From: a virus
Lineage: Duplodnaviria > Heunggongvirae > Uroviricota > Caudoviricetes
Reading direction: 5' to 3' (one strand)
IMG/VR virus record: IMGVR_UViG_3300030444_000128
DNA length: 19,646 nt
Positions 364-19,646 of this stretch are shown here, piece by piece (within the stretch, counting starts at the first letter, position 1; the number at the start of each line of letters is the position of its first letter). Below the pieces are notes generated by a model, which ran no database searches, was not told the DNA's origin, and saw only the letters and a list, made by a program, of their open reading frames with translations. The position numbers were made by a program, and so were the translations under genes.

Positions 364-429
364 AATAATAAATTAATTAGTGCATATGTGCTCTTTGATA
401 TAGCGCACATTAACATCGGGAGAATAATC

Positions 430-585
430 GTGTCATTCAAGGCTAATTATGAATCGCTGGCATCGATCATGCCGCGTAATGAACAGGAAGCAGATGCTGT
501 AGTGGACCCGGTAATCGCTGAAATGAATGCTCGCCTGGAGGCTGAATTTGCAGCTGAGAATGAACATACCACCCAGGGCGACTAG
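430..585 (+). CDS. small hypothetical protein (~51 aa from GTG 430)
   Basis: ORF 388-585. The GTG at 430 is preceded by GGGAGA (417-422) at good spacing. No recognisable domain. The start is uncertain (GTG 388 is the alternative). Confidence 0.3.
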   Translation: MSFKANYESLASIMPRNEQEADAVVDPVIAEMNARLEAEFAAENEHTTQGD

Positions 586-1189
586 GACTGTTTTTTGTGT
601 CGGTAGCGGTCCGTCACTCACTCGTGAGGACTGTGCTGCTATAGAAAAAACTGGCTGTTCAATCATCGCGGTTAACAATTCCTGGCAGATGTTCGATGAC
701 ATTTATGCCTTATACGCCGGTGATTTGTCATGGTGGAAGCAATACGGATCCACCATACCGGGAGGGAGATTCCGCAAAGTGACAGCCAACCTGGCGGCGG
801 CGAAATCATTTTCGTTGGAGTACAGGCGATATTGTGGACCGGCGGAAGGGGTAAATAGCGGCGCGCAGGCTATCAGTCTGGCTGCTGAATCAGGGGCTGA
901 AGTAGTGGTATTAGTCGGCTATGACTGTTCTCTGCAAAACGGCCTTCATTGGCATGGCGCGCACCCTCAAGCCCTACGGAATCCAACGCAGGTGTCTATT
1001 TCAAAATGGCAACAGCAGTTCCTGGATACCCGCAAAAAACACGCAGATTTACATATTTTGAATGCAAGTAGGAGCAGTGCAATTCAATGTTTCCCAAGAA
1101 TAAATTTAGAGGCAGTGATCGCGTTATTATCGTCGGCAGTGGCCCAAGCGCCGCAAACTTTGTTGCGCCGCGCGGAGTGCCGATTATAG
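560..1189 (+). CDS. GT42/DUF115-like Rossmann protein (putative glycosyltransferase-like), paralog 1
   Basis: ORF 527-1189. N-terminal FCVGSGPSL...IIAVNN, then VVVLVGYDCS and LHWHG, resemble the GNGPSL / GID / catalytic-His layout of Cst-II-type (GT42) and DUF115/Maf proteins. Start placed at ATG 560, which puts the GSGPS motif at residues 14-19 as in paralog 2; the ATG at 527 overlaps the upstream ORF. Confidence 0.5.
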   Translation: MNIPPRATRTVFCVGSGPSLTREDCAAIEKTGCSIIAVNNSWQMFDDIYALYAGDLSWWKQYGSTIPGGRFRKVTANLAAAKSFSLEYRRYCGPAEGVNSGAQAISLAAESGAEVVVLVGYDCSLQNGLHWHGAHPQALRNPTQVSISKWQQQFLDTRKKHADLHILNASRSSAIQCFPRINLEAVIALLSSAVAQAPQTLLRRAECRL

Positions 1190-1713
1190 CGGTCAATGGG
1201 GCCATCGACTGGCTTAACCGCGCTTCTTATTTTTTCACCCTTGATCCATCGCCAGACAATATGCGGCGCGTTGGTCGTGGCCGCCGTCGCCGTGGTGTTT
1301 GTTATTGCATGGCACTACCCGATGTTAAAGAACGTGAAGTCAGAGATGGCGTTCTGTGCTTCCGTCGTGTGGCTGAGCGCGGCACGGAGCCAAAAAATAC
1401 GAATTCTCCCGAGTGGTGGGCGTGGCGCTGGTCCGCACATTTCGGCCTTTGCGAAGATGAGAATGAAATTGCCAGCGGCAATAGTGCATATGGTGCTCTG
1501 AACCTGGCTTTCCATATCGGATTCAAACATGTCGCCCTGGTGGGCGTTGACGCTACACAAGAACCACGCGTTCACTCCGGCGGCACGCCAAAAAATCTAA
1601 GTCACCTGCCTTTGTTATTCCAGTCTGCGCGTGAACAGATTGACGTTGTTTCATGCGGGAAAATGGGAGGTATTCCGCAGATGACTCTTAAAGAATGGCT
1701 GAAGAATACATGA
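1087..1713 (+). CDS. GT42/DUF115-like Rossmann protein (putative glycosyltransferase-like), paralog 2
   Basis: ORF 1087-1713. IIVGSGPSA...IIAVNG, then VALVGVDAT and RVHSGG, parallel the motifs of the upstream gene (tandem paralogs). AGGAG at 1070-1074. Overlaps the 3' end of the upstream gene by about 100 nt in another frame. Confidence 0.55.
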
Positions 1714-2387
1714 TGGCACCCACAATTTATCACCGTATCGACGGTACCAAATACAGGAATGTCTGGGTTGTTGGTGATCTGCATGGTTGCTACACCAGAC
1801 TGATGTCCGAACTCCATCGTGTGGATTTTGACCCGGCGCAGGATTTACTGATATCGTTCGGCGACCTTATCGATCGCGGTACTGAAAATGTCGAATGTCT
1901 GGAACTATTGCAGATGCCCTGGTTCAGGGCAGTGATGGGGAACCATGAGCGGCTGATGATTGATGCGTTAAGTCCAGATGGCAACGTGAATAACTGGCTA
2001 ATGAATGGCGGACAATGGTTCTTCATGCTGGACACTGATCAGGAAATATTAGCCTGGGCGCTGGTGGAGCTGGTAAAGCGTCTGCCCTATATCATTGAGT
2101 TGAACACCGGGCAAGAAACTATCGTTATAGCCCATGCCGACTATCCGGATAATGAATACCAATTCGGTAAGGAGGTGCCGCTTTTCAACGTTGTCTGGGC
2201 GCGCGAGCGTATCAGTGATTCGATGGATGATATTGGTGGCGAAATTTCGGGCGCAGATCGTTTTATCTTTGGTCACACTCCGGTGAAAAGCCCGAAGACA
2301 TTCTGGAATCAGCATTATATCGACACAGGTGCCGTATTTTGCGGAAACCTGACATTGATGAAAGTGAAAGGTGATGGTGCAGCATGA
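1695..2387 (+). CDS. Ser/Thr protein phosphatase, lambda-PPase-like (calcineurin-like metallophosphoesterase)
   Basis: Motifs in order: GDLHG, GDLIDRG, GNHE, then ...GHTP...IDTGAVF. Strongly resembles phage lambda phosphatase / E. coli PrpA along its whole length. Start could be ATG 1695, 1710 or 1713. Confidence 0.85.
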
Positions 2388-3085
2388 AGATTGCTTTAGT
2401 TCTTCGCTCTGGTGGTGACTATAACGCTTCCGATGTGCAGTGGCTGGTTAATCAACTGCCAAAAGGCTATGAAATTATTTGCCTGACAGACCTGAAGCGT
2501 TTACATGTACCTGGCGTCAAAGTTGTCCCATTGATCAACCAGTGGCAAAAGTGCCGTGGCTGGTGGGCGAAAATCGAGTTGTTCCGACCGGATATAACCG
2601 ATGATCTGTTCTATCTGGATTTGGACACGGTTATTGCCGGTGATATACGCCCAATCCTAGAGAATCCACCAACCAGCTTCACCATGCTTAGGGATTTTTA
2701 CCATCCACAATATCGTGGCAGCGGTGCCCTGTGGATACCAAATAGTGTAAAAGTGCATATCTGGAGTGCATTCTGGCAAGATCCGGAAGGTTGGATTGCT
2801 CGTTGTGTTACTACTGAATGCTGGGGTGAGCAGGGGTTTTTGCGGAAGGTTATGGGTGATGATACACCAGTATTTCAGGATCTGTATCCGGGATGGTTTG
2901 TAAGTTACAAGGCCGATGTTGTGGAACCTGGTTCGAAATATGCGAGCGCGCGTTACTCCAGGGGGAATGGGGCATTACCAAAAGACTGCCGAATAATCTT
3001 TTTCCACGGCAAACCGCGACCTCGCGAAGTGTCAGAGGATTGGCTTCCCCTTATCAGCTCATTTTTTGAGCGAGAATCAGAATAA
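2384..3085 (+). CDS. hypothetical protein, possible nucleotide-sugar (DXD-type) glycosyltransferase
   Basis: ORF 2384-3085, start overlapping the phosphatase stop (ATGA). Contains YLDLDTVI (DXD-like) after a beta-alpha-beta-like N-terminus. Family assignment is weak. Confidence 0.45.
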
Positions 3086-3086
3086 T

Positions 3087-3103
3087 ATTGCTCTAATAAT
3101 TCC
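3087..3103 (+). promoter_or_regulatory. C1-repressor operator-like site
   Basis: ATTGCTCTAATAATTCC versus the P1 C1 operator consensus ATTGCTCTAATAAATTT as I remember it (14/17). Lies immediately after the stop at 3083-3085. Confidence 0.6.
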
Positions 3104-3111
3104 ATATTTTT

Positions 3112-3141
3112 AAAACGTGATGTACACTCATCACGTTTTTT
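3112..3141. terminator. bidirectional rho-independent terminator
   Basis: AAAACGTGATG-TACACT-CATCACGTTTT: perfect 11-bp stem with an A-tract before and a T-tract after, so a hairpin plus U-run forms on either strand. Confidence 0.65.
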
Positions 3142-3152
3142 ATTAGAGCAAT
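3136..3152 (-). promoter_or_regulatory. C1-repressor operator-like site (inverted relative to 3087-3103)
   Basis: Minus strand reads ATTGCTCTAATAAAAAA (14/17 to consensus). Together with 3087-3103 it forms an inverted operator pair around the terminator, directly upstream of the 3167 operon. Confidence 0.55.
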
Positions 3153-3166
3153 CTATAAGGTGCACT

Positions 3167-3385
3167 ATGTGGCCATTCCGACGGAAATATCACTACTGGC
3201 TGATCGCCTTTGTTACGCTGACCGGCGGTATCAGGCATGTCATCACCAGGTATCGCAACAAGAGACTCACCTTAGCCAGAATTTTACAGGCTGCCATAGG
3301 TGAGGGACTGGATACAAATTGCGTAGTCCTTCCACCTTCATACTTAGGAAAAATGACCGAAGCACAAGCTAATACGGAACTTTGA
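3167..3385 (+). CDS. small hypothetical protein, probable single-pass membrane protein
   Basis: ORF 3167-3385 (72 aa). AAGGTG at 3157-3162, 4 nt before the ATG. Hydrophobic stretch YWLIAFVTLTGGI. Stop at 3383-3385 lies 1 nt before the next ATG (coupling). Confidence 0.4.
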   Translation: MWPFRRKYHYWLIAFVTLTGGIRHVITRYRNKRLTLARILQAAIGEGLDTNCVVLPPSYLGKMTEAQANTEL

Positions 3386-3386
3386 A

Positions 3387-4649
3387 ATGAGCACTTCAGC
3401 ACAAAACCAATCAATCGAAAATGTATCTATCCCTGATGTCCTGAATGCCGGTATCCCGGCCATTATCCAGAACATCCGGGCCGCGCAACGCCGCGTTAGT
3501 TGTGATGACCTCACAGCACGTTTTTTTGATAATGCGGTTCAGTCAGCGGAGATGCTTCACGCACAGCTTATTGATGTTTATAACGCAGAAGCTGATAGCC
3601 ATAACTCCCTGGTAGATGCAGCTGAAAATATGCAGTTGGATCTCGGTCTGAAGGGTAAAGAAATTGAAGAGCTTCAGCTGCAAATTGAACATTTGAAACG
3701 CCAGCAACAGGACGCGATCGACGATGCGACGCATGACGCCAACCAGCGTGCTGATAATGCCGAACGTATAAGCATTGAGCTGGAAACAAAACTCAATGAA
3801 ATGACCGCGATGGTTGAACTGCGGAACTCACAGATTTCAACGCTAAAATCTCAATATAAAGAGATCATGAAACTTGATCCTTTTAACCTTGAGAAACGCT
3901 ATAACAAAGCTAAAAGCGAGCGACAGGAACTGCGTAAGCAGGTCGCTGACCTTAACCAACAGCTCAAAAAAACTATTAAAGATGCAAGCGAAGCGCGCGT
4001 GGCATTTGCTAATAAAAAAGCAGAGGTTACCGCGCTGGTTAATGAGAATGCCAAATTTGCGACGCTCAAGAAGGAAATGTATGGCATTACTGAGCGCCGT
4101 TTCCCTGCAAGCAAACTTCATCCGACGTTAGGGCAAATCTCCTTCTTCCCGCGCCTCCTGGCTTATGGGATCTCATCGCCTAAAGAGTTCAATAACGAGC
4201 GTCCTTATATCGTTTCTAAGCTGGACTTTGCTTATCAGTTCTGCTGCGACATGGGCTATGCCATTGATATCCGAATCAACGAATGGTTGATGCCAAACTT
4301 CCAGCCGTTGGCAATTTTCCGCGAGTTCCAGCCGGAAGGTTGGGTAGAGTTCTTCCATGAATTGATCTGTAAAGAGATGGAAAGCCGCCGCCCGGAATTG
4401 GTCCGTCGAGTTGAGTGGGCGCAAGAGGTTATGTTGGCAGATGCAGAGCTGCCGTTCGAACCGGAATTCATTGATGATCTGGCAACTAAAGGGCTGCATA
4501 CCCTGTTTGATGTGGTTACCCGCCGTCATGAGCAGTTGGTTGTCGAATTGGGTTTAGAGGAAACTGCGGCAAGAAGACTTCTCGATGTTTGCTATGCACG
4601 TAGCGATGCATGGGAAAAAGAGAACGGCGGCACTATTTACGTTCGCTGA
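3387..4649 (+). CDS. hypothetical coiled-coil protein (420 aa)
   Basis: Long ORF with a heptad-like, charged Q/E/K-rich segment at roughly residues 90-220 and a globular C-terminal half. No family recognised. Followed by a strong terminator. Confidence 0.7.
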   Translation: MSTSAQNQSIENVSIPDVLNAGIPAIIQNIRAAQRRVSCDDLTARFFDNAVQSAEMLHAQLIDVYNAEADSHNSLVDAAENMQLDLGLKGKEIEELQLQIEHLKRQQQDAIDDATHDANQRADNAERISIELETKLNEMTAMVELRNSQISTLKSQYKEIMKLDPFNLEKRYNKAKSERQELRKQVADLNQQLKKTIKDASEARVAFANKKAEVTALVNENAKFATLKKEMYGITERRFPASKLHPTLGQISFFPRLLAYGISSPKEFNNERPYIVSKLDFAYQFCCDMGYAIDIRINEWLMPNFQPLAIFREFQPEGWVEFFHELICKEMESRRPELVRRVEWAQEVMLADAELPFEPEFIDDLATKGLHTLFDVVTRRHEQLVVELGLEETAARRLLDVCYARSDAWEKENGGTIYVR

Positions 4650-4668
4650 TGGTTACAGTGTCACTTTT

Positions 4669-4703
4669 AATGCTGGTGGAGTGCGCCCACCAGCATTTTT
4701 TTT
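4669..4703 (+). terminator. rho-independent terminator
   Basis: AATGCTGGTGG-AGTGCGC-CCACCAGCATT followed by TTTTTT: 11-bp GC-rich stem plus T-tract, 20 nt after the stop at 4649. Confidence 0.8.
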
Positions 4704-4722
4704 CGTCCAATGAGGAGGGCAT

Positions 4723-5229
4723 TTGAGTATTTACAATAAACACGCACACCAGGAACGTCCGTACATCGTCATAGTAGATATTGATGGGACGATATCAGAG
4801 GCAACGGAAGACAGGTTGCATTTACTTCCACCACCTGGCAAAGGTGCATTAACAGAGCACTGGAACGAGTTTAACCTTGCCTGTGACACTGATGCTCCCA
4901 TCACTCCAGTTATTGATATGGTGCGCCAGTTGTCCAGCATTTACACGCTCTGGTTTGTAACCGGGCGCTGTGAGATAGCCAGGGATAAAACACGAGCCTG
5001 GTTGCGTAAGCACGTAACAAATGGGGCTGAGCCTTTGCTATCTATGCGTCCTGCCACCGATGACAGAAATGATGGTCCAGCAAAGATTGATCTCCTTAAG
5101 AAAATTGGTCTAAGTAAAATTGCATTCGCGCTGGAAGATAAGATTGAAGTAGCGCGTGTTTTCAGGCATCACGGCGTGCTTACGTTAATGGTCAGAGAGT
5201 ACGAAAATGCGCTTCTTCATCAACAATAA
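4723..5229 (+). CDS. HAD-superfamily hydrolase-like protein (putative phosphatase)
   Basis: TTG start with GAGGAGG at 4712-4718. N-terminal VIVDIDGTIS (HAD motif I, DxDGT), FVTGR (motif II), AKIDLLKK and ALEDK (motifs III/IV-like). Confidence 0.65.
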   Translation: MSIYNKHAHQERPYIVIVDIDGTISEATEDRLHLLPPPGKGALTEHWNEFNLACDTDAPITPVIDMVRQLSSIYTLWFVTGRCEIARDKTRAWLRKHVTNGAEPLLSMRPATDDRNDGPAKIDLLKKIGLSKIAFALEDKIEVARVFRHHGVLTLMVREYENALLHQQ

Positions 5230-5245
5230 TTGCTCTAATAAATCT
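5229..5245 (+). promoter_or_regulatory. C1-repressor operator-like site
   Basis: ATTGCTCTAATAAATCT, 16/17 to the remembered consensus, overlapping the stop codon of the HAD gene. Confidence 0.65.
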
Positions 5246-5327
5246 TGATTTTTAAAACGGAGAAAGTGAAAATAAAAACATGCCGCAAGGCGCGGCATGT
5301 ATCCAATCAATCACAGGAGCTGAAAAT

Positions 5328-5414
5328 ATGAACACGGCATTCAAAATCATTATGGCCGCGATCTATTTCTGGCTGTTCTCTATCACTTTTGGCGGCATCG
5401 TCGCGCATGGGTAA
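5328..5414 (+). CDS. possible 28-aa hydrophobic peptide
   Basis: ATG 5328 preceded by AGGAG (5315-5319). Encodes MNTAFKIIMAAIYFWLFSITFGGIVAHG, essentially one transmembrane helix. Below the ORF-track cutoff; the call rests on the RBS and hydrophobicity only. Confidence 0.3.
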   Translation: MNTAFKIIMAAIYFWLFSITFGGIVAHG

Positions 5415-5493
5415 GGGGAGTATATTAGCCATTTGGAACCCCACGAGCTCTTGCGGGTTTAATTAAGAACCCGCAAGAAAAACACGAATTGGG

Positions 5494-8400
5494 CTATATT
5501 TTTCCGCCTACGCCTTTAAACTTCTCAATAAACGAGACGATTTTCTGGAAAACTGCCTGTTTTTTCGTTTTATATTGCGGATTCAACGGACTAAGTTTTG
5601 GTAATGTTTCGTTTAATTCTGTGCCATTTTCGGTGGCGTATTCGCGTTTTAAAGACGTGCGAATATAGCGTTTTGCTGCATCTTCATTGAGATTTTCTTC
5701 TTTTATCAATGCTTCTGCTTCACGTTGCTGTTCGCGTTGAGCAAACGTAAAGAATGCCTCAATGATACTGGCTTTGTCTGGTAAATCATCCAGGTTCGTT
5801 TGCTGAATAAAATCGACCACCAGGCCCTCTTTCGCCCGGTTCCCCAGGCTTGAACGAATTAAGCGTTTGACCTCTTCGATCATTTCGCCCTTGCCTTTAT
5901 TTTGTCTGTTGTGTTCGAAAATCAGTCCAAGGATATAATCCAGGTTTATTTCCTGAGACTTCAGCAAATCGACCTCAAAAACCACGTCATCCCAGTCAGT
6001 GGTTGATTTCTCTTTTTTCTCAGCTTCTTTCTCACGGCGCTGCCAGTCGCGAATATCGTTATAGGCAGAACGATAATCCTGAATCTTGCGATCAGCAGGG
6101 AGACGAATTGTTTGCAATTCAGCGAACTTTTCATCATCCACATAATGTTCTGCTTTGAATTTTTCTACCGCAACAGGATCGCTAAGATCGATTTGTTGCA
6201 GGGCTTTTAGCGTGGCAAATTCATCATAGTTTTGCAGGATGTTCTCGGCACGCAGGTATTCGCCAAACAGTTTAACGAAGTCTTTCTTCTCTTTTTCACT
6301 TTCAATACTGGCAGGGTCAGGGAACCGTTGTTCCAGTTCTGAAACTACTGCCATAAAGCCGCGTTTGGCTTCACCGGTGGCAGCATCAGTAAAACCTTCC
6401 ATATACTCTGCATAACTCTTTTCTAACACCACATTTTTGGTATTTTTATCACCAAACAGCGTTATGGCATCAATGGTTGAGCGTTCCAGATCCCGAAAAG
6501 TGACAATGTTACCGAAGGTTTTAGTGGCGTTATAAATGCGGTTGGTGCGGGAAAATGCCTGCATCAGGCCGTGAAAACGCAAGTTTTTATCGACGAATAG
6601 CGTGTTCAATGTTGGAGCGTCGAAGCCGGTTAAAAACATCCCAACGACAATTAACAGATCGATATCCTGATTTTTAACCCGTTGGGCTAAATCGCGATAG
6701 TAGTTCTGAAAACCGTTACCGTCGGTGCTGAAGTTAGTTTTAAAATAGCTGTTATACTCACGAATTGCAGCGTCAAGAAACTCTTTAGCACTGCTGTCCA
6801 TTGCGCTGGTATCAAAAGTTTCATCGGAAATTTCACCAATGGCATTTTGTTCTTCATTAGCGGCAAAGGAGAAGATTGTCGCAACACGCAGCGGTTTATA
6901 AGTTGCAGATTTATTAGCGGCTTCCTCTTGTAACCGTTTAAACGCCGCGTAATAGGCTTTTGCAGCATCCACGCTGCTCACTGCCAACATAGCATTAAAA
7001 CCTTTTGCGCCAGGGAAAGTACGGTGCGTCTTCTGGCGGAAGTTATTCAGAATATATTGCGTAATTTCCTGTATACGCATGGGATGAAGAAACGCCTGCT
7101 GATTTTCAGCCGCACTTAGTTTTTTCTCGTCAGTTTCTGTCTCTAAAGACTTAAACTGTGGCCGCACATCGTTGTAGTCCACCTTGAATTTGAGCACTTT
7201 TTCATCACGAATCGCATCGGTAATTACATACGAATGCAATTCACGACCAAATACGCTGGCGGTCGTTTCTGAGCCTAAGGCGTTTTCCGGGAAAATAGGT
7301 GTGCCGGTAAAACCAAACTGATAATAGCGTTTGAATTTCTTCTTCAGGTTTTTCTGCGCTTCTCCAAACTGGCTGCGGTGGCATTCATCAAATATAAACA
7401 CCACTTGCTGATTATATACAGGCAGGTCGCTTTCTGCTTTCATCAGGTTATTGAGTTTCTGAATAGTAGTGACGATAATTTTGTTATCGTCCTTATCCAG
7501 ATTTCGTTTAAGGCCTGCGGTATTTTCCGAGCCGTTGACGCTGTCTGGCGAAAAACGCTGATATTCCTTCATGGTCTGGTAATCGAGGTCTTTCCTGTCG
7601 ACCACAAAGAAGACTTTATCAATAAAGTCCAGCTCTGTTGCCAGACGCGCGGCTTTAAAGCTGGTGAGGGTTTTACCAGAACCGGTAGTGTGCCAGATAT
7701 ACCCACCGCTTTCCGGTTTTGACCAGTTCTTCGCTGTAAAGGAACTCTTAATTTTCCACAGAATGCGCTCGGTGGCGGCAATCTGGTACGGTCGCATCAC
7801 CAGTAGCGTCTGACTACTGTCAAAAACGCTGTAGTTCACCAGAACATTCAGCAGAGTATGTTTCTGGAAAAAGGTAGCGGTAAAGTCTTTGAGGTCTTTA
7901 ATCAGCGTGTTGTCTGATTTCGCCCAATTCATGGTGAAGTCAAAACTGTTTTTATCGCGCTTTGTCGTGTTGGCAAAATAACGGGTATCGGTGCCGTTAG
8001 AAATGACAAACAGTTGCAGATACTTAAACAGGGAATTTTCGCTGTTAAAACTCTCTTTACTGTAACGATGTATCTGGTTGAAAGCCTCACGAATCGCCAC
8101 CCCGCGTTTTTTTAGTTCGATTTGCACCAGCGGTAAACCATTAACCAGGATCGTGACGTCATAACGGTTAGCATGAGAACCCGTCTGTTCAAACTGCTGG
8201 ATAATCTGCACCTTATTGCGCATGAGATTCTTTTTATCTATCAAATAGATGTTCTCAAGTCGCCCGTCATCAAAAATAAAGTCGCAGATATAGTCGATAT
8301 GGATTTTACGGGTTTTATCCAGAATACCATCGCTGGGGTTGTCCAGATACTGCTCCGTGAAGCGCCGCCACTCGCTGTCATTAAACATCACACCATTGAG

Positions 8401-8610
8401 GCTCTGAAGCTGTTCCCGAACATTGGACAGCATTGCCGACTGTGATTTTACGGAAATAAATTCATAACCCTGATTTTGCAGGTCCTGAATCAGTTCACGT
8501 TCCAGGTCCGATTCGCTCTGGTAGCTGTCGCCTGTTGGCTCAGCTTTGATGTACTTATCAAGAACGATAAAGTTATTGGATTCAGCAATGGTGTGTGTCT
8601 GATGAGTCAT
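5494..8610 (-). CDS. hsdR: type I restriction enzyme R subunit (HsdR), EcoR124-like (type IC)
   Basis: 1038-aa ORF with helicase motifs ([12 protein letters not shown] Walker A; [14 protein letters not shown]-box-like) and the type I HsdR architecture. Length and N-terminus match my memory of EcoR124 HsdR. Lies downstream of hsdM-hsdS on the same strand. Confidence 0.93.
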
Positions 8611-8731
8611 AGCGCATCCTTTGTGCCGTCTGGCAAGGGCCGGAAGGGGGGTAATGGTGACTTCCGGCGCGTAAAAAATAGTCTATATACTGACCGGGTG
8701 TTAAGGTGGTCCGATCGGTAGCAATGATCAA

Positions 8732-9949
8732 TTAATTACTGGCAGTTTCAGGTTTCGGGAAACTGAACAGTAAATCACGGTAGTATTCGTATTGTTTCTG
8801 GCGCAACTCGATTTCACGCGGGAGACCTTCGGTGATAGAGTTGGTCAGGGTGTCGAATTTATCGAGTATTTCGACAATGCGAGCTTGTTCCTTAAGTGAT
8901 TTTTCGTGATCTTTAGGATATGGAACCGGAATCATAATTTTTGAAAAACCATTAATGAGTAGTGTATTAACTTTTGTTCTGGCTACATACTTTGCTTTTT
9001 CAGAAATAAACGAATCGGTTTGCATGTAATAGGAAATAAATTTTGGATTCAAAGAATGTCGAAAAGCATAACAGTGATCATGAATAGCGATATCGTCATC
9101 CCCAAGCCATGCCACTGCTTTACCAACGTCTTCTACAGTCTCCCCCACGTCAGTTATCACGACATCTCCATGTTTGGCATAGCGTAATGACGCTGCCATA
9201 TCAGCTCTAACCTGTGATAACGAATGAGTTGTGTAAACACCATATCGTGTATATATCTCACCATAATGGATTACACTGATACCACCATCTTCTACATAAT
9301 CTGCTTTAGTAAAACGTTTTCCACGAATAAACTCACCAATTTCCCCCAAAGTCTTCCACTCAACCTCACCATCTTTAAAACTCAACAACTGGTCGCGATA
9401 GTAGTTGTACTGTTTTTTACGCATGTTAAGCTCAGCGGTAAGCTCAGCGGTAAGTGCAGTAAATTTATCCAGAATCCGAACGATTTCAGACTGGATGGCA
9501 AGGGATTTTTCCGGATTATCCGGGCAGGGGATGGGGATAGGGAAATTCTCTAAGGTTGATAGCACGATATATGTCATTGCCGCGCTATTTGTTCTTTCCT
9601 CGAGATATTTCTTCAGGCTATGGCTAAGCACAAAATACAAAAATCTAACACTTACATTTTCGTCGAAATTTGTCAGAACATAGGTGCGCTGATAAGCCTC
9701 AAACTTGCCGATGTAATGCTTCACCTCACCAACATTCGCATTGCCTGCAATCAGCAATGCCTCTGTATCCCAGCGGAATTTATCAATTTTGCTTGTCTCT
9801 TTGGCTGTCGTGAAGAACATATACTCTCCATCATCAACAGCCGCATTCGCATTAAGCTTTCCTGTTTCAATTTTGCAAGTTTGCCCAAGTGTCTTCCACT
9901 CAACCTCAACCCCATCCAGCAATTTTTCCAGATAACTCATCTCGCTCAT
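8732..9949 (-). CDS. hsdS: type I restriction-modification specificity subunit (HsdS), type IC with TAEL x2 central repeat
   Basis: 405-aa ORF with two target-recognition halves (EVEWKTLG occurs twice) and the central conserved region ...[29 protein letters not shown]. Start ATG overlaps the hsdM stop (ATGA). Confidence 0.92.
9429..9452 (-). repeat. 12-bp tandem repeat (2 copies) encoding TAEL-TAEL in the HsdS central spacer
   Basis: Plus strand GCTCAGCGGTAA GCTCAGCGGTAA. On the coding strand this is the LTAELTAEL segment whose copy number is known to set the spacer length of type IC recognition sites. Confidence 0.9.
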
Positions 9950-11508
9950 TTCTGCACCTCGCAGCCTTCAATTTCAGCCACAATTGCATCAATATCTTTA
10001 CGCAACTGGTCGATTTTGCTGACCGTGGTTTTCAGCTCTGCATTCAGCTCACCGATATCGATAATTTCGCGGTTATCTTTCGCTTCCACATAGCTGCTCA
10101 CCGACAGGTTATAGTCATTCGCGACAACAGTCTCAAACGCAACAGATTTCGCCAGATGAGCAACATCTTCCTTGCTGGCAAATACCTGCATAATCTGTTC
10201 GATATGGGCATCGGTCAGGATATTGTTGTTGGTTTCTTTTTTGAACAGTTCGCTGGCATCAATAAACTGAACTTTGGTATCCGTTTTATGTTTAGACAGC
10301 ACCAGAATGTTTACAGCAATAGTGGTGCCAAAGAACAGGTTCGGTGCCAGTGAAATCACGGTTTCGACATAGTTATTATCGACCAGATACTGACGGATTT
10401 TCTGCTCCGCGCCGCCACGGTAAAAAATACCCGGGAAGCAGACAATCGCAGCACGACCTTTGGCCGAAAGATAGTTCAGCGCATGTAGTACAAACGCAAA
10501 GTCAGCTTTGGATTTGGGGGCCAGGACGCCAGCCGGGGCAAAACGTTCATCGTTAATCAGCGTCGGGTCATCGCTGCCAATCCATTTCACCGAATACGGC
10601 GGGTTAGAAACGATGGCATCAAACGGTTTTTCATCTCTGAAGTGTGGCTCAGTCAGTGTATTACCCAGCTTGATATCAAACTTGTCGTAGTTGATGTTGT
10701 GCAAAAACATGTTCATACGTGCCAGGTTATAGGTTGTATGGTTGATTTCCTGACCAAAAAAGCCTTCTTCGATGATATGGTTATCAAACTGCTTTTTAGC
10801 CTGCAACAACAGTGAGCCGGAACCCGCTGCCGGGTCGTAGATTTTGTTAACGTTGGTCTGCCCGTGCATAGCCAGTTGTGCAATCAGCTTGGAGACGTGC
10901 TGCGGTGTAAAGAACTCACCGCCTGACTTACCGGCATTTGCCGCATAGTTAGAAATCAGGAACTCATAGGCATCACCGAACAGGTCAATCTGATGTTCGT
11001 TGAAGTCACCAAGTTTTAACCCTTCAACCCCTTTCAGAACCGCAGCCAGGCGGGCATTTTTATCTTTAACGGTGTTACCCAGGCGGTTACTGGTGGTATC
11101 GAAATCAGCAAACAAACCTTTGATGTCTGCTTCTGAAGGGTAGCCGTAAGCAGAACTTTCGATAGCAACGAAGATGCTGTTTAAATCTGCGTTCAGTCTG
11201 TCATTGGTATTTGCTTTCGCAGCTACGTTGCAGAAAAGCTGACTGGGGTAGATGAAGTAGCCTTTAGTTTTGATGGCATCGTCTTTAATGTCATCAGTAA
11301 TTACGCTGTCATCCAGTTTCGCATAACAGATACTGTCATCACCGGCTTCAATATAACTGGAAAAATTTTCGCTGATAAAACGGTAGAAAAGTGCGCCCAG
11401 AACGTATTGCTTAAAATCCCATCCATCGACCGAACCCCTGACATCGTTAGCAATTTGCCAGATTTGACGATGAAGCTCTGCACGTTGTTGAATACTTGTC
11501 ATTTTCAT
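9946..11508 (-). CDS. hsdM: type I restriction-modification N6-adenine DNA methyltransferase subunit (HsdM)
   Basis: 520-aa ORF with the catalytic NPPY motif ([10 protein letters not shown]) and an AdoMet-binding region ([10 protein letters not shown]). Confidence 0.95.
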
Positions 11509-11647
11509 CCACTTATTTCAGGCTTATGTAATTGGCGGTGATTCTACAGCAACTTGGATGCTTTAGCAGTTCGGACATTAGGCTACGAATGACCTGCCTA
11601 GAGGTTTGTTAAGCCGCAAAGTGCTGGTGCTTTATGTCTGTGAAGTT

Positions 11648-13542: not shown

Positions 13543-13584
13543 ATTGCTCTAATGTGTTGCTATTTCTTTAATCGAGGGTATTAT
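13543..13584 (+). promoter_or_regulatory. C1 operator-like site overlapping a candidate sigma70 promoter for lpa
   Basis: ATTGCTCTAATGTGTTG (13543-13559, about 13/17 to consensus) overlaps a -35-like TTGCTA (13557-13562); 16-bp spacer; -10 TATTAT (13579-13584). Fits C1 repression of lpa. Confidence 0.5.
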
Positions 13585-13629
13585 ATTCCACGTTGATTAG
13601 TTGACATGGGCTAATCAGTAGGTGACAGG

Positions 13630-14167: not shown

Positions 14168-15361
14168 GTGACCTGGGACGATCACAAGAAGAATTTTGCT
14201 CGCCTGGCGCGAGATGGTGGTTACACCATCGCACAGTATGCCGCCGAGTTTAATCTTAACCCTAATACCGCACGTCGTTATCTCCGTGCCTTCAAAGAAG
14301 ACACCAGGACAGCGGACAGCCGCAAGCCAAATAAGCCAGTCAGGAAGCCACTAAAAAGCATGATCATTGATCACTCTAATGATCAACATGCAGGTGATCA
14401 CATTGCGGCTGAAACAGCGGAAAAACAAAGAGTTAATGCCGTTGTCAGTGCCGCAGTCGAGAATGCGAAGCGCCAAAATAAGCGCATAAATGATCGTTCA
14501 GATGATCATGACGTGATCACCCGCGCCCACCGGACCTTACGTGATCGCCTGGAACGCGACACCCTGGATGATGATGGTGAACGCTTTGAATTCGAAGCTG
14601 GCGATTACCTGATAGATAACGTTGAAGCGCGGAAGGCCGCGCGCGCTATGTTGCGTCGGTCCGGGGCCGATGTTCTGGAAACCACTCTTCTGGAAAAGTC
14701 TCTTTCTCATCTCCTTATGCTGGAGAACGCCAGGGATACGTGTATTCGCCTGGTGCAGGAAATGCGCGATCAGCAAAAAGACGATGATGAAGGTACTCCG
14801 CCTGAATACCGTATCGCGAGCATGCTAAACAGCTGTTCCGCGCAGATAAGCAGTCTGATCAACACCATTTACAGCATCCGGAATAACTATCGAAAAGAAA
14901 GCCGGGAGGCGGAAAAGCACGCTTTGTCTATGGGGCAAGCTGGCATTGTTAAGCTGGCATATGAACGAAAGCGTGAAAATAACTGGTCAGTGCTGGAAGC
15001 AGCTGAATTCATCGAGGCGCATGGTGGGAAAGTTCCGCCCCTGATGCTGGAGCAAATCAAAGCCGATCTGCGTGCTCCTAAGACCAATACCGATGATGAG
15101 GAAAGGCAAACAGCCGTCGGTGGCCCTTCTCTTGACGATCTGGACAAAGTTGCGCGAGAACGGGCCGCCAACCGCCGCGCCGATGCCGCATTGTGGATTG
15201 AGCAGCGTAGGGAAGAAATCGCCGATATCGTTGATACAGGCGGTTATGGAGATGTTGATACTGAAGGTGTATCAAACGACCCATGGCTGGAACAAGACCT
15301 GGACGAAGACGAGGAGGAAGACGAAGAAGTTACCCGCAAGCTATACGGGGATGATGATTAA
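14168..15361 (+). CDS. pacA: P1 PacA (pacase / terminase small component)
   Basis: 397-aa ORF from GTG 14168 (GGAAG SD). Contains the characteristic pac hexanucleotide cluster near its 5' end and an acidic C-terminal tail. Stop overlaps the next start (ATGA). Confidence 0.9.
14361..14519. other. P1 pac packaging site (4 + 3 TGATCA/G hexanucleotide repeats with Dam GATC sites)
   Basis: TGATCA at 14361, 14368, 14380 and 14395; TGATCG at 14491; TGATCA at 14503 and 14514. Two clusters about 90 bp apart inside pacA, matching the described roughly 160-bp pac architecture. Confidence 0.9.
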
Positions 15362-16340
15362 TGGCCAGAAGTTGCGTAACGGATCCTCGTTGGCGCGAGC
15401 TGGTGGCGCTATATCGTTATGACTGGATTGCTGCCGCTGATGTTTTGTTCGGCAAAACACCTACCTGGCAGCAGGATCTGATTATTGAGTCTGTGCAGGA
15501 ACAGGGTAGCAAGACATCTGTTTCGTCTGGTCACGGTACCGGGAAATCAGACATGACTTCTATCATGATCATGTTGTTCATAATCATGTATCCCGGTGCC
15601 CGCGCCATTATCGTTGCGAACAAAATTCAGCAGGTAATGACCGGTATATTCAAGTACATCAAGATAAACTGGGCTACTGCCACCAGCCGTTTTCCATGGC
15701 TTGCTGATTATTTTGTTCTGACAGAAACCGCTTTCTATGAGGTTACTGGTAAAGGTGTATGGACTGTATCAATATCATGATGGTGTCCGGCCAGCGAAAT
15801 AAACGCCGTGTAATCAACTATCGAATGCTGGAATACACAGACGTTACAGAAACGCAGCTTGCCGCCAAAATTTTCGCAGAATGTAATCCTGAGCGATTCC
15901 CCAATATCACCATAGCGATAGATGGCGATGGCCTGGGTAAAGCAACAGCGGATCTGATGTACGAGTATTATGGTATTACCGTACAGCGTATACGCTGGGG
16001 TAAAAAGATGCATAGCCGTGAAGATAAGAGCCTGTACTTTGATAAACGTGCTTATGCCAACGTTCAAGCCGCAGAGGCCGTAAAATCTGGTCGTATGAGA
16101 CTGGATAAGGGTAATGAAACTATTGAGGAAGCGTCGAAAATCCCTGTAGGGATTAACTCCGCAGGTCAATGGAAGGTGATGAGTAAGGAGGATATGAAGA
16201 AAAAACTCAACCTGCACTCACCAGACCATTGGGATACATATTGTTTCGCTATGCTGGCGGATTATGTTCCCCAGGATGAAGTGCTTAGCGTCGAAGACGA
16301 AGCGCAGGTTGATGAAGCTCTGGCATGGCTTAATGAATGA
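15361..16340 (+). pseudogene. pacB: pacB (terminase large component), apparently internally deleted and frameshifted
   Basis: Two ORFs in different frames: 15361-15780 carries the Walker A (SGHGTGKSD) and 15759-16340 carries a nuclease-domain-like segment ([11 protein letters not shown]...HSPDHWD). No Walker B anywhere. The combined length (~326 codons) is well below the ~494 aa I recall for P1 PacB. A TAA at 15750-15752 blocks the frame of the second ORF upstream. Confidence 0.6.
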
Positions 16341-16343
16341 ACA

Positions 16344-16360
16344 TTTGCTCTAATAAATTG
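16344..16360 (+). promoter_or_regulatory. C1-repressor operator-like site
   Basis: TTTGCTCTAATAAATTG, 15/17 to consensus, immediately after the pacB stop. Confidence 0.6.
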
Positions 16361-16490
16361 TGTTTTTTAGCTACCGATGTTACATTGAACCTGACCTCTT
16401 GCGCCTTGAGGCATTTTCGGTTTATGCTTATCAGGCACCTCATTAAAACGGGTGCCGGGATTGGCCTCCCGCTTAAGTCTAAGGCGATAC

Positions 16491-16514
16491 AGACGCCGCT
16501 CGCGTCTTTTTTTT
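16491..16514 (+). terminator. probable rho-independent terminator
   Basis: AGACGC-CGCTC-GCGTCT followed by seven T: short GC-rich stem plus T-tract, downstream of pacB. Confidence 0.5.
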
Positions 16515-16679
16515 GTATCGGCGTACACGCACACCTCTACAATGGTGGGCTGTATGGGGCTACCTTCGGGTAGGCTGGTTACCTTGGACGCCAGTAAGGC
16601 CAACTCCGTACAGTCCACCGCCAGCAAGATTGGTCTCTTCTGCGGTGGTTACATACCAACGTCTAAGGAGGCTGCCAAT

Positions 16680-16901
16680 ATGGCTACTATCCCTACCCCA
16701 ACTCATCCTGAATTTATCTGGCGCTTTTACTCCTGCCAAAAACGTCACTATCACTTCGTTATTGCACCAACAGAAGATGAGGCCCGCTCTCAGCTTCCTG
16801 ACGCCCCATGTATTTTCTCTGCCCGTTTTTCCACTGATTCACGCAATTCTCTCAGTTACTGGTGCCTCCCTGTTAACGCTTCTGTTCAGGAGGGGCTATG
16901 A
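16680..16901 (+). CDS. small hypothetical protein (73 aa)
   Basis: ATG 16680 preceded by AAGGAGG (16665-16671). Stop TGA overlaps the ATG of the next gene (ATGA at 16898), suggesting coupling. It is the inner part of ORF 16452-16901. Confidence 0.45.
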   Translation: MATIPTPTHPEFIWRFYSCQKRHYHFVIAPTEDEARSQLPDAPCIFSARFSTDSRNSLSYWCLPVNASVQEGL

Positions 16902-18016: not shown

Positions 18017-18048
18017 TGGAAGAATGCCCGGTTGATGCCGGGCATAAT

Positions 18049-18900
18049 TTATTGCGCGCTTTCGGGGTTGTCGTTTACTGGCTGCCCCTTCTTGGTTTTA
18101 CGACTGCGCGTAACTGATGCGGCTGACTTAACCTTTTTCTCTTCGCGAGTGATGGCAATTTGTTTTTTTACATTTTCAATATCTGCCAGGCGATATATTT
18201 TTGCTTGCGGCCAGCGGTCGCAGATGATCGGTTCTATGGAGTCATAAAGGCTAAATTTTGCTTTTTCGAATTCACCGTTGATGATAATTCCATCACGGAG
18301 AGTTTCATCGCAGATAAACACGCCACACAGTGGCACATGGTAACTAACTGATTTACCATCATTGTAGTTAGGGCTACTGGAAATGTAGTGGACGCGCAGC
18401 ATTGTTTCGCTAAAGCCGTGTACGCGCATACGGAATTTTTCATCCTCCGGGTACTGCCTCATTAGCTCTTTTGTTGCTTCCAGGTTCTCTATGTATTTCG
18501 CACTGTGCTCATTGATCCCCGCGCTTTTTTGGATGCGAATGTCCTTATCAATCAGATGAATAATGCGGCCAGCGGTCATGTTGACGCTGTTCACAGCTTC
18601 TGTCTGATAAGTTGTAACCTTGCGCACACCGCGAAGGATGTTAGGCACTGGATATAAAATAGTCTTTGGGATATTGAGGTCTGGGTACTGTTCCAGTTCC
18701 CGCGCCATTAAAGTCCATTTATCAATTTCAGCCTGAATGCTGTCAGTTTCTTTGAACGGTAGAACGACAACCGGGCGTACAGGACGACCGTCGCTGGCTG
18801 TATCAACGTGTTGGGCGCGTGCAACAGCTTTTTTTAGAAAGAGATCCCTGAAGCTGACGAACTCCTGGTACAGTTGTTCGCCGTAGACATAATTTATCAT
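18049..18900 (-). CDS. c1: P1 C1 repressor
   Basis: 283-aa minus-strand ORF with GGAGGAGG SD. Size, position downstream of coi and adjacent operator-like sites match P1 c1. Sequence recognised from memory, not aligned. Confidence 0.9.
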   Translation of the reverse strand: MINYVYGEQLYQEFVSFRDLFLKKAVARAQHVDTASDGRPVRPVVVLPFKETDSIQAEIDKWTLMARELEQYPDLNIPKTILYPVPNILRGVRKVTTYQTEAVNSVNMTAGRIIHLIDKDIRIQKSAGINEHSAKYIENLEATKELMRQYPEDEKFRMRVHGFSETMLRVHYISSSPNYNDGKSVSYHVPLCGVFICDETLRDGIIINGEFEKAKFSLYDSIEPIICDRWPQAKIYRLADIENVKKQIAITREEKKVKSAASVTRSRKTKKGQPVNDNPESAQ

Positions 18901-19220: not shown

Positions 19221-19339
19221 AATTATGCCTCACTGTATTGACAACACAGAGCCTGAAGCTCTGACCTACTGTTTCACCCATGATCCATGCTGGGGTAATC
19301 TAACAACATTGCGCTGTGTGTAAGATGAGCAATGCATAG

Positions 19340-19646
<307 letters not shown>

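What the first reader, a model, noticed from the sequence alone, without database searches (positions are those of the whole stretch)
3087..3152. Inverted pair of C1 operator-like sites bracketing a bidirectional terminator
ATTGCTCTAATAATTCC (plus strand) and ATTGCTCTAATAAAAAA (minus strand) flank a perfect 11-bp hairpin with A- and T-tracts on both sides. Operator-like 17-mers also sit directly after stop codons at 5229, 13543 and 16344. The recurring arrangement of stop codon, operator, then promoter of the next unit is a compact regulatory layout, and the inverted pair could allow C1-mediated looping or roadblocking at an operon junction.
Basis: partly seen in the sequence, partly recalled or inferred. 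Interest (0 to 1): 0.4.

Follow-up and report, generated by a model that had tools for sequence, protein, structure and literature searches.

The report
Known P1 repressor operator pair Op86a/b
The two inverted repressor-binding sites are the already annotated operators Op86a/Op86b of phage P1, which control the pmgR-pmgS genes and enclose the transcription terminator of the preceding operon, so this is a compact but known regulatory junction.

Summary
Window 3087-3103 (+) and 3136-3152 (-) are C1-operator 17-mers with identical 13-bp cores. They surround a perfect 11-bp hairpin at 3112-3122/3129-3139.

It is not new. The window is P1-family DNA, and the 66 bp are identical to P1 82152-82217. 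GenBank annotates these as C1 operators OpmgRa/OpmgRb (former Op86a/b), with a predicted promoter PpmgR. P7 annotates them as Op(sht[a])/Op(sht[b]).

What I add:
- The hairpin is a conserved rightward intrinsic terminator ending the pmgN-pmgQ operon. Diverged relatives keep it through two compensated base pairs and many G·U-compatible changes. These pair only in the + strand RNA, so "bidirectional" is not supported.
The promoter must lie inside the bracket, so its transcripts lack the left hairpin arm and escape the terminator.
- Published P1vir RNA-seq shows a 2-3 log-unit rise from pmgQ to pmgR at 10 min, which fits a separate early unit.
- A crude σ70 scan favours a -10 in the hairpin loop (3123-3128) over the annotated TAAAAC in all five lineages. 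This is unproven.

Operators abutting stop codons at 5229, 13543 and 16344 are confirmed. Looping or roadblock is untested.

The parts
2384..3085 (+). pmgQ (hdmD in P7), last gene of the upstream pmgN-pmgQ operon; stop codon TAA at 3083-3085
   Evidence: ORF list; P1 annotation; P7 annotation
3087..3103 (+). C1 operator Op86a = OpmgRa, ATTGCTCTAATAATTCC. It is co-oriented with pmgR and carries the T-run/TA extension seen at most P1 operators.
   Evidence: 21.4 bits on a leave-out matrix; annotated protein_bind 'phage repressor C1' in AF234172 and AF503408; 13-bp core intact in 79/80 protein-anchored relatives
3088..3116 (+). Annotated predicted σ70 promoter PpmgR (candidate A): -35 TTGCTC at 3088-3093, 17-bp spacer, -10 TAAAAC at 3111-3116. 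The inferred start is near 3123.
   Evidence: AF234172 annotation, marked 'predicted'; crude score 4.5; the -10 is not conserved (TGAAGC in JK004, TAAAGC in L133); the same TTGCTC-17-TAAAAC design occurs at Op88
3100..3128 (+). Alternative σ70 promoter (candidate B): -35 TTCCAT at 3100-3105, 17-bp spacer, -10 TACACT at 3123-3128, which is the hairpin loop. The inferred start is near 3135, so operator b would cover about +1 to +17.
   Evidence: Top-scoring candidate in all 5 lineages: 5.7, 7.7, 7.7, 7.7 and 9.5. Loop positions T37, A38 and T42 are invariant in 23 distinct variants while the three other loop positions vary. This is inference only.
3112..3144 (+). Intrinsic terminator of the upstream operon: stem 3112-3122/3129-3139 (7-bp G/C-containing core CGTGATG/CATCACG plus 4 A-U pairs), loop TACACT, U-tract TTTTTTATT at 3136-3144
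   Evidence: Sequence; folds (-12.9 kcal/mol); covariation count of 97.2% paired, 2 compensated pairs, 15 G·U cells; RNA-seq discontinuity between pmgQ and pmgR
3136..3152 (-). C1 operator Op86b = OpmgRb, ATTGCTCTAATAAAAAA. It is oriented opposite to pmgR. Its non-consensus A-rich tail is the terminator's T-tract on the + strand.
   Evidence: 19.9 bits; annotated in P1 and P7; core intact in 79/80 protein-anchored relatives
3157..3162 (+). Shine-Dalgarno AAGGTG of pmgR, 4 nt before the ATG at 3167
   Evidence: Sequence; AAGG/AGG kept in relatives
3167..4649 (+). Controlled operon pmgR (3167-3385, 72 aa) and pmgS (3387-4649, 420 aa)
   Evidence: ORFs; P1 annotation; pmgR reported essential
4669..4697 (+). 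Strong intrinsic terminator closing the pmgR-pmgS unit (11-bp stem followed by TTTTTTT)
   Evidence: Terminator scan; the repeat finder I5
370..386 (-). C1 operator Oppp (Op83), controlling the upstream operon. It is reverse-oriented and lies downstream of the predicted PpmgN.
   Evidence: 20.0 bits; P1 annotation
5229..5245 (+). C1 operator OpmgT (Op88); its first base is the last base of the pap stop codon
   Evidence: 25.9 bits; P1 annotation; sequence
13543..13559 (+). C1 operator Olpa (Op94), 1 nt after the pdcB stop, overlapping the -35 of Plpa
   Evidence: 15.4 bits; P1 annotation; sequence; promoter scan TTGCTA-16-TATTAT
16344..16360 (+). C1 operator 3 nt after the pacB stop. It heads an immI-like module (isrK-like RNA, C4 RNA, icd/ant homologue) that is not at this place in reference P1.
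   Evidence: 22.0 bits; Rfam isrK at 16435-16512 and C4 at 16538-16625; blastn to P1 icd/ant
18049..18900 (-). c1 repressor gene (283 aa), the cognate binding protein encoded in the same window
   Evidence: ORF; 95.3% DNA identity to P1 93232-94521, which contains c1 at 93231-94082

Best explanation
Window 3087-3152 is the P1-family operator pair Op86a/Op86b, with the intrinsic terminator of the upstream pmgN-ppp-pmgQ operon nested between the two operators. The pair is named OpmgRa/OpmgRb in P1 and Op(sht[a])/Op(sht[b]) in P7.

Proposed mechanism:
1. Rightward transcripts arriving from pmgQ form the hairpin 3112-3139 and stop in the U-tract at 3136-3144.
2. A separate σ70 promoter for pmgR-pmgS lies inside the bracket. 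It is either the annotated TTGCTC-17-TAAAAC, starting near 3123, or a promoter whose -10 is the hairpin loop TACACT, starting near 3135.
3. In either case its transcripts lack the left hairpin arm and so escape the terminator.
4. In a lysogen, monomeric C1 binds operator a, which covers the -35, and the reverse-oriented operator b, which lies at or just after the start site. This shuts the promoter.
5. When C1 is inactivated, pmgR-pmgS are expressed early.

Shown here: operator-grade sequence, identity to annotated operators, conservation of both cores, conservation of the + strand hairpin with compensated changes, and a transcript-level step in published RNA-seq.

Inferred: the exact -10 and start site, C1 occupancy of both sites, and any cooperative, looping or roadblock effect.
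For: - Identity: the window is 98% identical to P1 over 2000-5419. The 66-bp element is identical to P1 82152-82217. P1 annotates both 17-mers as C1 operators and PpmgR as a predicted promoter. P7 annotates the same pair.
- Operator quality: 21.4 and 19.9 bits on a matrix that excludes them. The 13-mer is enriched: 6 observed against 0.59 expected. The c1 gene is in the window.
- Selection on both operators: in 80 loci collected through the PmgS protein, and so unbiased for operators, 78 keep both 13-bp cores, while the adjacent bases 3153-3156 are hypervariable. Lineages with only about 69-75% PmgS identity (JK004, pCVMN1543, L132, L133) keep both operators at the same spacing, although the spacer and 5'UTR have diverged.
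- Terminator: a 7-bp G/C-containing core plus 4 A-U pairs, a 6-nt loop and UUUUUUAUU. On 23 distinct variants, 97.2% of cells are paired, two pairs are compensated (G-C to A-U, A-U to G-C), and 15 one-sided changes remain G·U. Pairing is 246/253 on the + RNA against 234/253 on the - RNA. The + strand energy holds at -12.9 to -13.5 kcal/mol while the - strand falls to -5.8.
- Separate early unit: P1vir RNA-seq log fold change at 10 min is 7.05 for pmgQ, 9.02 for pmgR and 9.99 for pmgS in wild type, and 6.23, 9.00 and 9.09 in dksA.
- Promoter inside the bracket.
- Precedents for a reverse-oriented operator downstream of, or over, a promoter: Obanb and Oppp.
Against: - No direct binding, 5'-end or 3'-end data for this junction could be retrieved. 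The primary P1 genome paper is not held, and no P1 start-site map was found.
- Both promoter candidates are weak: 4.5 and 5.7 on a crude scale where named P1 promoters score 0-14.7. About 0.66% of all positions reach 5.7.
- The simple terminator scan did not list this hairpin. I attribute that to the scan extending the stem through the A-U pairs, which leaves only 4 T in its tail window.
- The RNA-seq values are fold changes against uninfected cells and are not length-normalised. At 30 min pmgR is only 0.85 below pmgQ.
- The two compensated pairs trace to a single deep split, so they are one or two events rather than many.
- Seven cells in singleton variants break the stem.
Confidence: 0.8

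Rival explanations
1. The two operators bracket a bidirectional terminator at an operon junction, the promoter of the 3167 operon lies downstream at 3140-3166, and C1 acts by looping or roadblock rather than by promoter occlusion.
For: A-tracts and T-tracts lie on both sides of the stem. The - strand fold is as stable as the + strand fold in P1-type sequence: -27.0 against -26.9 kcal/mol for the 86-mer, and -12.4 against -12.9 for the hairpin. TATAAG at 3154-3159 in this window resembles a -10.
Against: On the - strand the stem is followed by only UUUU and then AAAAAUAUGG. No convergent gene is present. G·U-only changes weaken the - strand hairpin to -5.8 kcal/mol in JK004 and L133, while the + strand hairpin is held near -13. 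TATAAG is TACAAG in P1 and most relatives, and the 3153-3156 bases are the most variable of the junction. A -10 at 3154-3159 would start transcription at about 3166, leaving no Shine-Dalgarno in the mRNA.
Confidence: 0.08
2. Only operator a is a working operator. The right-hand copy is kept because it helps the terminator or the RNA. It would supply the U-tract and, in read-through RNA, pair with the left copy to form a long interrupted 24-bp hairpin, for example a processing or stability element. Alternatively it is a relic of a palindromic duplication.
For: The predicted RNA fold pairs 3087-3099 with 3140-3152 around the inner hairpin. Operator b lacks the consensus ATTT tail and the T-run extension that most operators carry. 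It has the lower score of the two.
Against: The 13-mer equals the genome-wide C1 core exactly, which an RNA stem would not require. The terminal pair (columns 1 and 66) is not kept in JK004 or pCVMN1543, and L152 has an A-C mismatch. Terminated RNAs end before the right arm is made, and promoter-derived RNAs lack the left arm, so the outer stem could form only in read-through RNA. Reverse-oriented partner or downstream operators are an established P1 pattern (Obanb, Oppp). Both P1 and P7 annotate b as a C1 operator.
Confidence: 0.1
3. The element works at the DNA level. The inverted repeat would extrude as a cruciform, or bend, bringing two C1-bound operators together into a repression loop.
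For: The inverted repeat is perfect, and the operator spacing is strictly conserved at 66 bp (67 bp in two variant sequences). C1-mediated looping at the c1 operators is something I recall from the older P1 literature. I did not verify it here.
Against: Several natural variants carry T·G or G·T oppositions in the stem, which are pairs in RNA but mismatches in a DNA cruciform. An 11-bp arm with a 6-nt loop is short for extrusion. A centre-to-centre distance of 49 bp is very short for a protein-mediated loop. The spacing conservation is already explained by the terminator and promoter nested inside.
Confidence: 0.04

Closest known systems
Phage P1 operators OpmgRa/OpmgRb (former Op86a/Op86b) with predicted promoter PpmgR, GenBank AF234172 82152-82217; P7 Op(sht[a])/Op(sht[b]), AF503408 84533-84598
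   Same: Identical 66-bp sequence to P1. Same flanking genes: pmgQ/hdmD upstream and pmgR-pmgS/shtA-shtB downstream. Same orientation and spacing.
   Different: Nothing differs in the element itself. The window differs from P1 by one base just outside it (3156 T against C). Neither record annotates the hairpin as a terminator. This window's phage-plasmid also differs elsewhere, with an hsd cassette, an extra immI-like module and a deleted pacB.
P1 divalent operator Obanab (Op72ab) at the ban promoter
   Same: Two C1 17-mers in convergent (tail-to-tail) orientation. The co-oriented copy supplies TTGCTC as the -35, and the reverse copy lies further downstream over the promoter.
   Different: In Op72ab the two 17-mers overlap by 6 bp to form a 28-bp palindrome. 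Here they are separated by 32 bp, and that gap holds a terminator hairpin. P1 annotates them as two monovalent operators.
Canonical Rho-independent (intrinsic) terminators with an upstream A-tract
   Same: A G/C-containing stem, a short loop, a U-tract of 8 U in 9 nt, an A-tract that can extend the stem, and a position 27 nt after a stop codon.
   Different: It is embedded between, and overlapped by, two repressor operators and the next promoter. The U-tract doubles as the tail of operator b. The stem is modest, with a 7-bp core and -12.9 kcal/mol.

Membership tests
P1/P7 C1-controlled operator | Asymmetric 17-bp match to the consensus ATTGCTCTAATAAATTT | tested here: met
   21.4 and 19.9 bits on a matrix built from 17 other P1 operators; training range 15.1-27.4. 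Both have 13/13 core matches.
P1/P7 C1-controlled operator | Lies at, or just downstream of, the promoter of a gene kept silent in the lysogen. The operator is usually co-oriented with the gene. | tested here: met
   Operator a is co-oriented with pmgR and overlaps both promoter candidates. Operator b is reverse-oriented, like Obanb and Oppp. The promoter itself is only predicted.
P1/P7 C1-controlled operator | The cognate c1 repressor gene is present in the same element | tested here: met
   283-aa ORF at 18049-18900 (-), 95.3% DNA identity to the P1 c1 region.
P1/P7 C1-controlled operator | Physical binding of C1 (footprint or EMSA) and derepression when C1 is inactivated | not testable with these tools
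   It is annotated as protein_bind 'phage repressor C1' in P1 and P7, but I could not read the experimental basis. Early expression of pmgR/pmgS during P1vir infection is consistent.
P1/P7 C1-controlled operator | Conserved relative to its surroundings in diverged relatives | tested here: met
   Both cores are intact in 78/80 protein-anchored loci and in lineages with 69-75% PmgS identity, whereas the spacer and 5'UTR diverge.
Intrinsic (Rho-independent) terminator, rightward | Stable stem-loop immediately followed by a U-tract, downstream of a stop codon | tested here: met
   Stem 3112-3122/3129-3139, 6-nt loop, -12.9 kcal/mol, then TTTTTTATT counted from the 7-bp core. The simple scan did not list it. 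I attribute that to its tail rule.
Intrinsic (Rho-independent) terminator, rightward | Structure maintained in evolution (covariation) | tested here: met
   97.2% paired, 2 compensated pairs, 15 G·U-compatible one-sided cells; slid controls give 38-72%. The caveat is few independent events.
Intrinsic (Rho-independent) terminator, rightward | RNA 3' ends or a drop in read-through in vivo | tested here: inconclusive
   Published RNA-seq shows a discontinuity at the junction: +2 to +2.9 log units at 10 min and -0.8 at 30 min. There are no 3'-end data.
Bidirectional intrinsic terminator | Functional U-tract after the hairpin on both strands, and convergent transcription units | tested here: not met
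   The - strand tail is UUUU followed by AAAAAUAUGG. All genes from 527 to 5229 are on the + strand.
Bidirectional intrinsic terminator | Hairpin conserved on both RNA strands | tested here: not met
   Pairing is 246/253 on + RNA against 234/253 on - RNA. The - strand energy falls to -5.8 kcal/mol in JK004 and L133 while the + strand stays near -13.
Divalent (overlapping) C1 operator of the Op72ab type | Two inverted 17-mers that overlap to form one palindrome | tested here: not met
   The 17-mers are separated by 32 bp (3104-3135). P1 annotates each as monovalent.

The most novel reading that the evidence does not exclude
The 66-bp cassette is a three-in-one element. The loop of the upstream operon's terminator hairpin (TACACT, 3123-3128; TATCAT or TATTAT in relatives) is the real -10 of the C1-controlled pmgR promoter, and the two operators bracket that promoter exactly: operator a over the -35, operator b from +1 to +17. 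The same DNA would then terminate incoming transcripts, launch transcripts immune to that terminator, and be shut by two repressor monomers. C1 bound on the U-tract might also strengthen termination in the lysogen. The annotated PpmgR -10 (TAAAAC) would then be wrong or secondary.
Probability: 0.35. Interest if true: 0.35.

Novelty: already known. Interest (0 to 1): 0.2.

Why it matters
It matters little for discovery. These operators have been in the P1 and P7 GenBank records since the early 2000s, and the C1 operator network is textbook phage biology.

The modest value is in refinement:
- The junction shows how tightly P1 packs a terminator, a promoter and two operators into the 81 bp between two genes.
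- The hairpin, which neither record annotates, is under + strand RNA-level selection.
- The predicted PpmgR -10 may be misplaced.

This could help anyone engineering P1-derived phage-plasmids or re-annotating the many P1-like plasmids, where this region is labelled only 'hypothetical protein'.

Tried and rejected
- The primary P1 genome paper (PMC523184) is not held, so the experimental basis of Op86 and any published terminator table could not be read. A search for 'Op86' found no paper containing the term.
- No start-site or Cappable-seq study of P1 turned up.
- Rfam gave no family at 2950-3300 even at E ≤ 1, so a known structured RNA is rejected.
- DNA-level relatives in plasmids are nearly all above 95% identical and useless for covariation: 687 records in total, of which only 5 fall in the 60-80% identity band.
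- The genome-contig scan with PmgS returned only two near-identical E. coli loci.
- A distant PmgS homologue on Citrobacter plasmid pCfr13-1 (20% identity) has no P1-type operators upstream, only an unrelated terminator, so it is not comparable.
- The operator-pair pattern scan of viral contigs is biased toward intact operators. I therefore used it only for hairpin variants, and used the protein-anchored set for operator conservation.
- The built-in promoter/terminator scan found neither a promoter nor this terminator at the junction. I treated that as a limit of its thresholds.
- I considered a -10 at TATAAG (3154-3159) and rejected it, because it is not conserved and leaves no 5'UTR.
- I considered cruciform or looping models and rated them low, because natural variants keep RNA-only wobble pairs.

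Full report
**What is there**

The sequence at 3080-3166 reads GAATAAT-ATTGCTCTAATAATTCC-ATATTTTT-AAAACGTGATG-TACACT-CATCACGTTTT-TTATTAGAGCAAT-CTATAAGGTGCACT-ATG. The repeat finder reports two nested perfect inverted repeats:
- 13-nt arms at 3087-3099/3140-3152.
- 11-nt arms at 3112-3122/3129-3139, with a 6-nt loop.

The 13-mer ATTGCTCTAATAA, allowing up to 2 mismatches, occurs six times in the window against 0.59 expected. None of 200 shuffles reaches six. The 86-nt stretch folds to -26.9 kcal/mol on the + strand (z = -6.1) and -27.0 on the - strand. One refinement: the right-hand 17-mer (3136-3152, - strand) overlaps the last 4 bp of the stem and the whole T-tract, rather than merely flanking the hairpin.

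**Where the window comes from**

Window 2000-5419 is about 98% identical to phage P1 and its relatives P7, SJ46, RCS47 and phi456. In the richly annotated P1 record AF234172:
- The left 17-mer is [quoted passage not shown].
- The right one is "OpmgRb; former Op86b".
- A predicted σ70 promoter, PpmgR, is drawn with its -35 on TTGCTC inside operator a and its -10 at the TAAAAC that forms the left foot of the hairpin.

P7 annotates the same pair as Op(sht[a]) and Op(sht[b]), "controls expression of sht operon". The 66 bp are identical between the window and P1. The first difference is one base further on, at 3156. Neither record annotates the hairpin.

**Are they operator-grade?**

I extracted the 17 other C1 operators of P1: 13 annotated, and 4 Op99-type sites located by pattern. 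I built a matrix without the two sites under test and scanned the window. Op86a scores 21.4 bits and Op86b 19.9. The training sites score 15.1-27.4. Eight sites in the window reach 15 bits, against 0.1 in shuffles:

| Position | Identity |
|---|---|
| 370-386 (-) | Oppp / Op83 |
| 3087 (+), 3136 (-) | the two Op86 sites |
| 5229 (+) | OpmgT / Op88 |
| 13543 (+) | Olpa / Op94 |
| 16344 (+) | heads the extra immI-like module |
| 18995 (-), 19167 (-) | Op99-type sites next to c1 |

The repressor gene c1 itself is in the window at 18049-18900 on the - strand.

**Conservation of the operators**

DNA searches mostly return relatives above 95% identity, so I collected relatives through the downstream protein PmgS. 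That route is blind to the operators. In 80 viral contigs, 78 keep both 13-bp cores intact. L133 has one change in operator a and L152 one change in operator b. The three or four bases just after operator b are hypervariable: CTAC, ATAC, CCAT, TTAC, CCAA, CTGC, TCAT, CAAA.

Four diverged lineages, with PmgS only 69-75% identical, keep both operators at the same 66-bp span although the spacer and 5'UTR have diverged:
- Cronobacter phage JK004.
- Salmonella plasmid pCVMN1543 and its viral-contig relatives.
- L132.
- L133.

Both operators are therefore under purifying selection.

**The hairpin is a rightward terminator**

The stem core is CGTGATG/CATCACG, extended by four A-U pairs. The loop is 6 nt. 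On the + strand the core is followed by TTTTTTATT. The element sits 27 nt after the pmgQ stop.

In the diverged lineages the stem is CATGGTG/CACCATG, or CATGGTG/CGCCATG. Two pairs have changed on both sides (G-C to A-U, and A-U to G-C), and one T-A has become T·G.

On an alignment of 23 distinct variants (A1), the named structure gives these counts:
- 97.2% of cells are paired, against 38-72% for slid controls.
- Two pairs are compensated.
- 15 one-sided changes remain G·U pairs.
- Seven cells, all in rare variants, are unpaired.

Those G·U pairs become C·A mismatches on the other strand. Pairing is 246/253 on the + RNA against 234/253 on the - RNA. The + strand hairpin stays at -12.9 to -13.5 kcal/mol in every major lineage. 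The - strand version drops to -9.7 in pCVMN1543 and -5.8 in JK004 and L133. On the - strand the stem is followed by only UUUU and then an A-run, and no gene converges on the site.

So selection acts on the + strand RNA. The element is the terminator of the pmgN-pmgQ operon and is not demonstrably bidirectional. One caveat applies: the compensated pairs stem from one deep split, so the number of independent events is small. No Rfam family matches the region.

**Where the promoter is**

The -10-like TATAAG of this window is TACAAG in P1 and most relatives. That location is not supported.

Published P1vir RNA-seq does indicate a separate early unit beginning at this junction. Values are log fold change in wild type, with the dksA mutant in brackets (PMC8201110 Table S1):

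| Gene | 10 min | 30 min |
|---|---|---|
| pmgO | 7.39 (6.63) | |
| pmgP | 6.99 (6.52) | |
| ppp | 6.95 (6.09) | |
| pmgQ | 7.05 (6.23) | 11.66 |
| pmgR | 9.02 (9.00) | 10.81 |
| pmgS | 9.99 (9.09) | |

These values are not length-normalised. Normalising would only enlarge the 10-min step, because pmgR is short.

Two candidates lie inside the bracket:
- **A**, the annotated TTGCTC-17-TAAAAC. The same design follows Op88.
- **B**, TTCCAT-17-TACACT, whose -10 is the hairpin loop.

I scored them with a crude σ70 matrix whose base frequencies I recalled from the classic promoter compilations. B is the top candidate in all five lineages, at 5.7 in P1-type, 7.7 in three lineages and 9.5 in JK004. 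A scores 4.5 and drops out of the top five outside P1-type. Its "-11 A" is G in JK004 and in a common P1-type variant.

In the loop, T37, A38 and T42 are invariant across all 23 variants. These correspond to -12, -11 and -7 of a -10 hexamer. The other three loop positions vary.

For calibration, named P1 promoters score 0-14.7, and 0.66% of all window positions reach 5.7. B is therefore plausible but unproven.

With either candidate, the transcript starts inside or after the hairpin, near 3123 or near 3135. It then cannot form the terminator.

With B, the two operators bracket the core promoter exactly. Operator a overlaps the -35, and operator b covers +1 to +17.

**Mechanism proposed**

- Incoming transcription from pmgQ terminates at the hairpin.
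- A weak σ70 promoter nested in the same DNA launches pmgR-pmgS, which ends at the strong terminator 4669-4697.
- In the lysogen, C1 monomers on operators a and b block the promoter.

Operator b is reverse-oriented, as are Obanb over the ban promoter and Oppp downstream of the predicted PpmgN. Its non-consensus AAAA tail is explained by double duty as the terminator's U-tract. That last point is my inference from the sequence. [quoted passage not shown]

**The "recurring layout"**

Operators do abut stop codons, with gaps of +1, -1, +1 and +3 nt at 3087, 5229, 13543 and 16344. In P1 the same is seen at Orlf after repL and at Obana over the end of dmt. I read this as genome compaction, with intergenic regions about as long as the regulatory module they hold. 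The inverted pair with an enclosed terminator occurs only at this junction.

**Verdict**

This is a correct re-discovery of an annotated element of a classic phage. The additions are small:
- An unannotated, + strand-selected terminator nested in the promoter-operator.
- A possibly misplaced -10 in the existing annotation.
- No support for bidirectionality or for a promoter downstream of the pair.

Novelty: already known. Interest: low.

Noticed in passing
window 15361-16340: pacB (terminase large subunit) is broken. An internal deletion of about 507 bp plus a frameshift joins P1 92125 to 92633 at window 15764/15767. This leaves two ORFs of 139 and 193 aa. The close relative vB_EcoM-673R5 has the intact 1485-bp gene. 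The element may be packaging-defective, or the assembly may be wrong here.
   Followed up: partly
window 16341-18049: A 1.7-kb module lies between the pacB stop and c1 and is absent from this place in reference P1. It holds a C1 operator (16344-16360, 22 bits), an isrK-like sRNA (Rfam RF01394, 16435-16512, 60.8 bits), a C4 antisense RNA (RF01695, 16538-16625, 75.9 bits), and a 372-aa ORF (16898-18016) with 70-81% DNA identity to P1 icd/ant1. It looks like a second or relocated immI-type antirepressor module under C1 control. Relatives annotate it as Icd/Roi/Ant.
   Followed up: partly
window 5419-11609: A type I restriction-modification cassette on the - strand replaces P1 84483-87969 (pmgT through humD). 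It comprises hsdR 5494-8610, hsdS 8732-9949 and hsdM 9946-11508. The C1-controlled Op88 promoter (5229-5275) now points into the 3' end of hsdR. The hairpin at 5278-5300 looks like a terminator only for the - strand. After derepression, transcription from Op88 could therefore run antisense into hsdR.
   Followed up: no
P1 record (L002/L003) and window operators, positions 19-28 downstream of each 17-mer: Most C1 operators share a conserved extension beyond the 17-bp consensus, roughly nT(A/T)TTTTTA(A/T)G. Examples are Oc4, OrepL, Odmt, Oppp, Omat, Op86a, Op88 and the 16344 site. Op86b, Obanb, Orlf and Oref lack it. It is present whatever the annotated promoter geometry, so it may belong to the C1 (or Lxc) contact or bending region rather than to a -10.
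   Followed up: partly
window 3087-3118 and 5229-5260: The Op86a and Op88 modules share ATTGCTCTAATAA-N6-ATTTTTAAAACG at identical spacing. This suggests a duplicated or convergently kept operator-promoter module.
   Followed up: no
P1 AF234172 2628-2645 (L002): The operator Omat is annotated on the - strand, but the operator-like sequence CATGCACTAATAAATAT reads on the + strand, co-oriented with mat. This is probably a strand slip in the record.
   Followed up: no
window 13543-13629: No + strand terminator separates the pdcB stop from Olpa/Plpa, although phd-doc-pdcAB upstream is a plasmid-maintenance operon. C1 bound at Olpa may therefore also have to stop read-through into lpa. Published RNA-seq at 10 min shows pdcB at 9.57 and lpa at 6.62.
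   Followed up: no
window 19337-19646: The last 310 bp match P1 8849-8540 (the IS5 region of the mod749::IS5 record, 88.7% identity) in inverted orientation, right after the coi side of the immunity region. This suggests an IS element next to the c1/coi region in this element.
   Followed up: no
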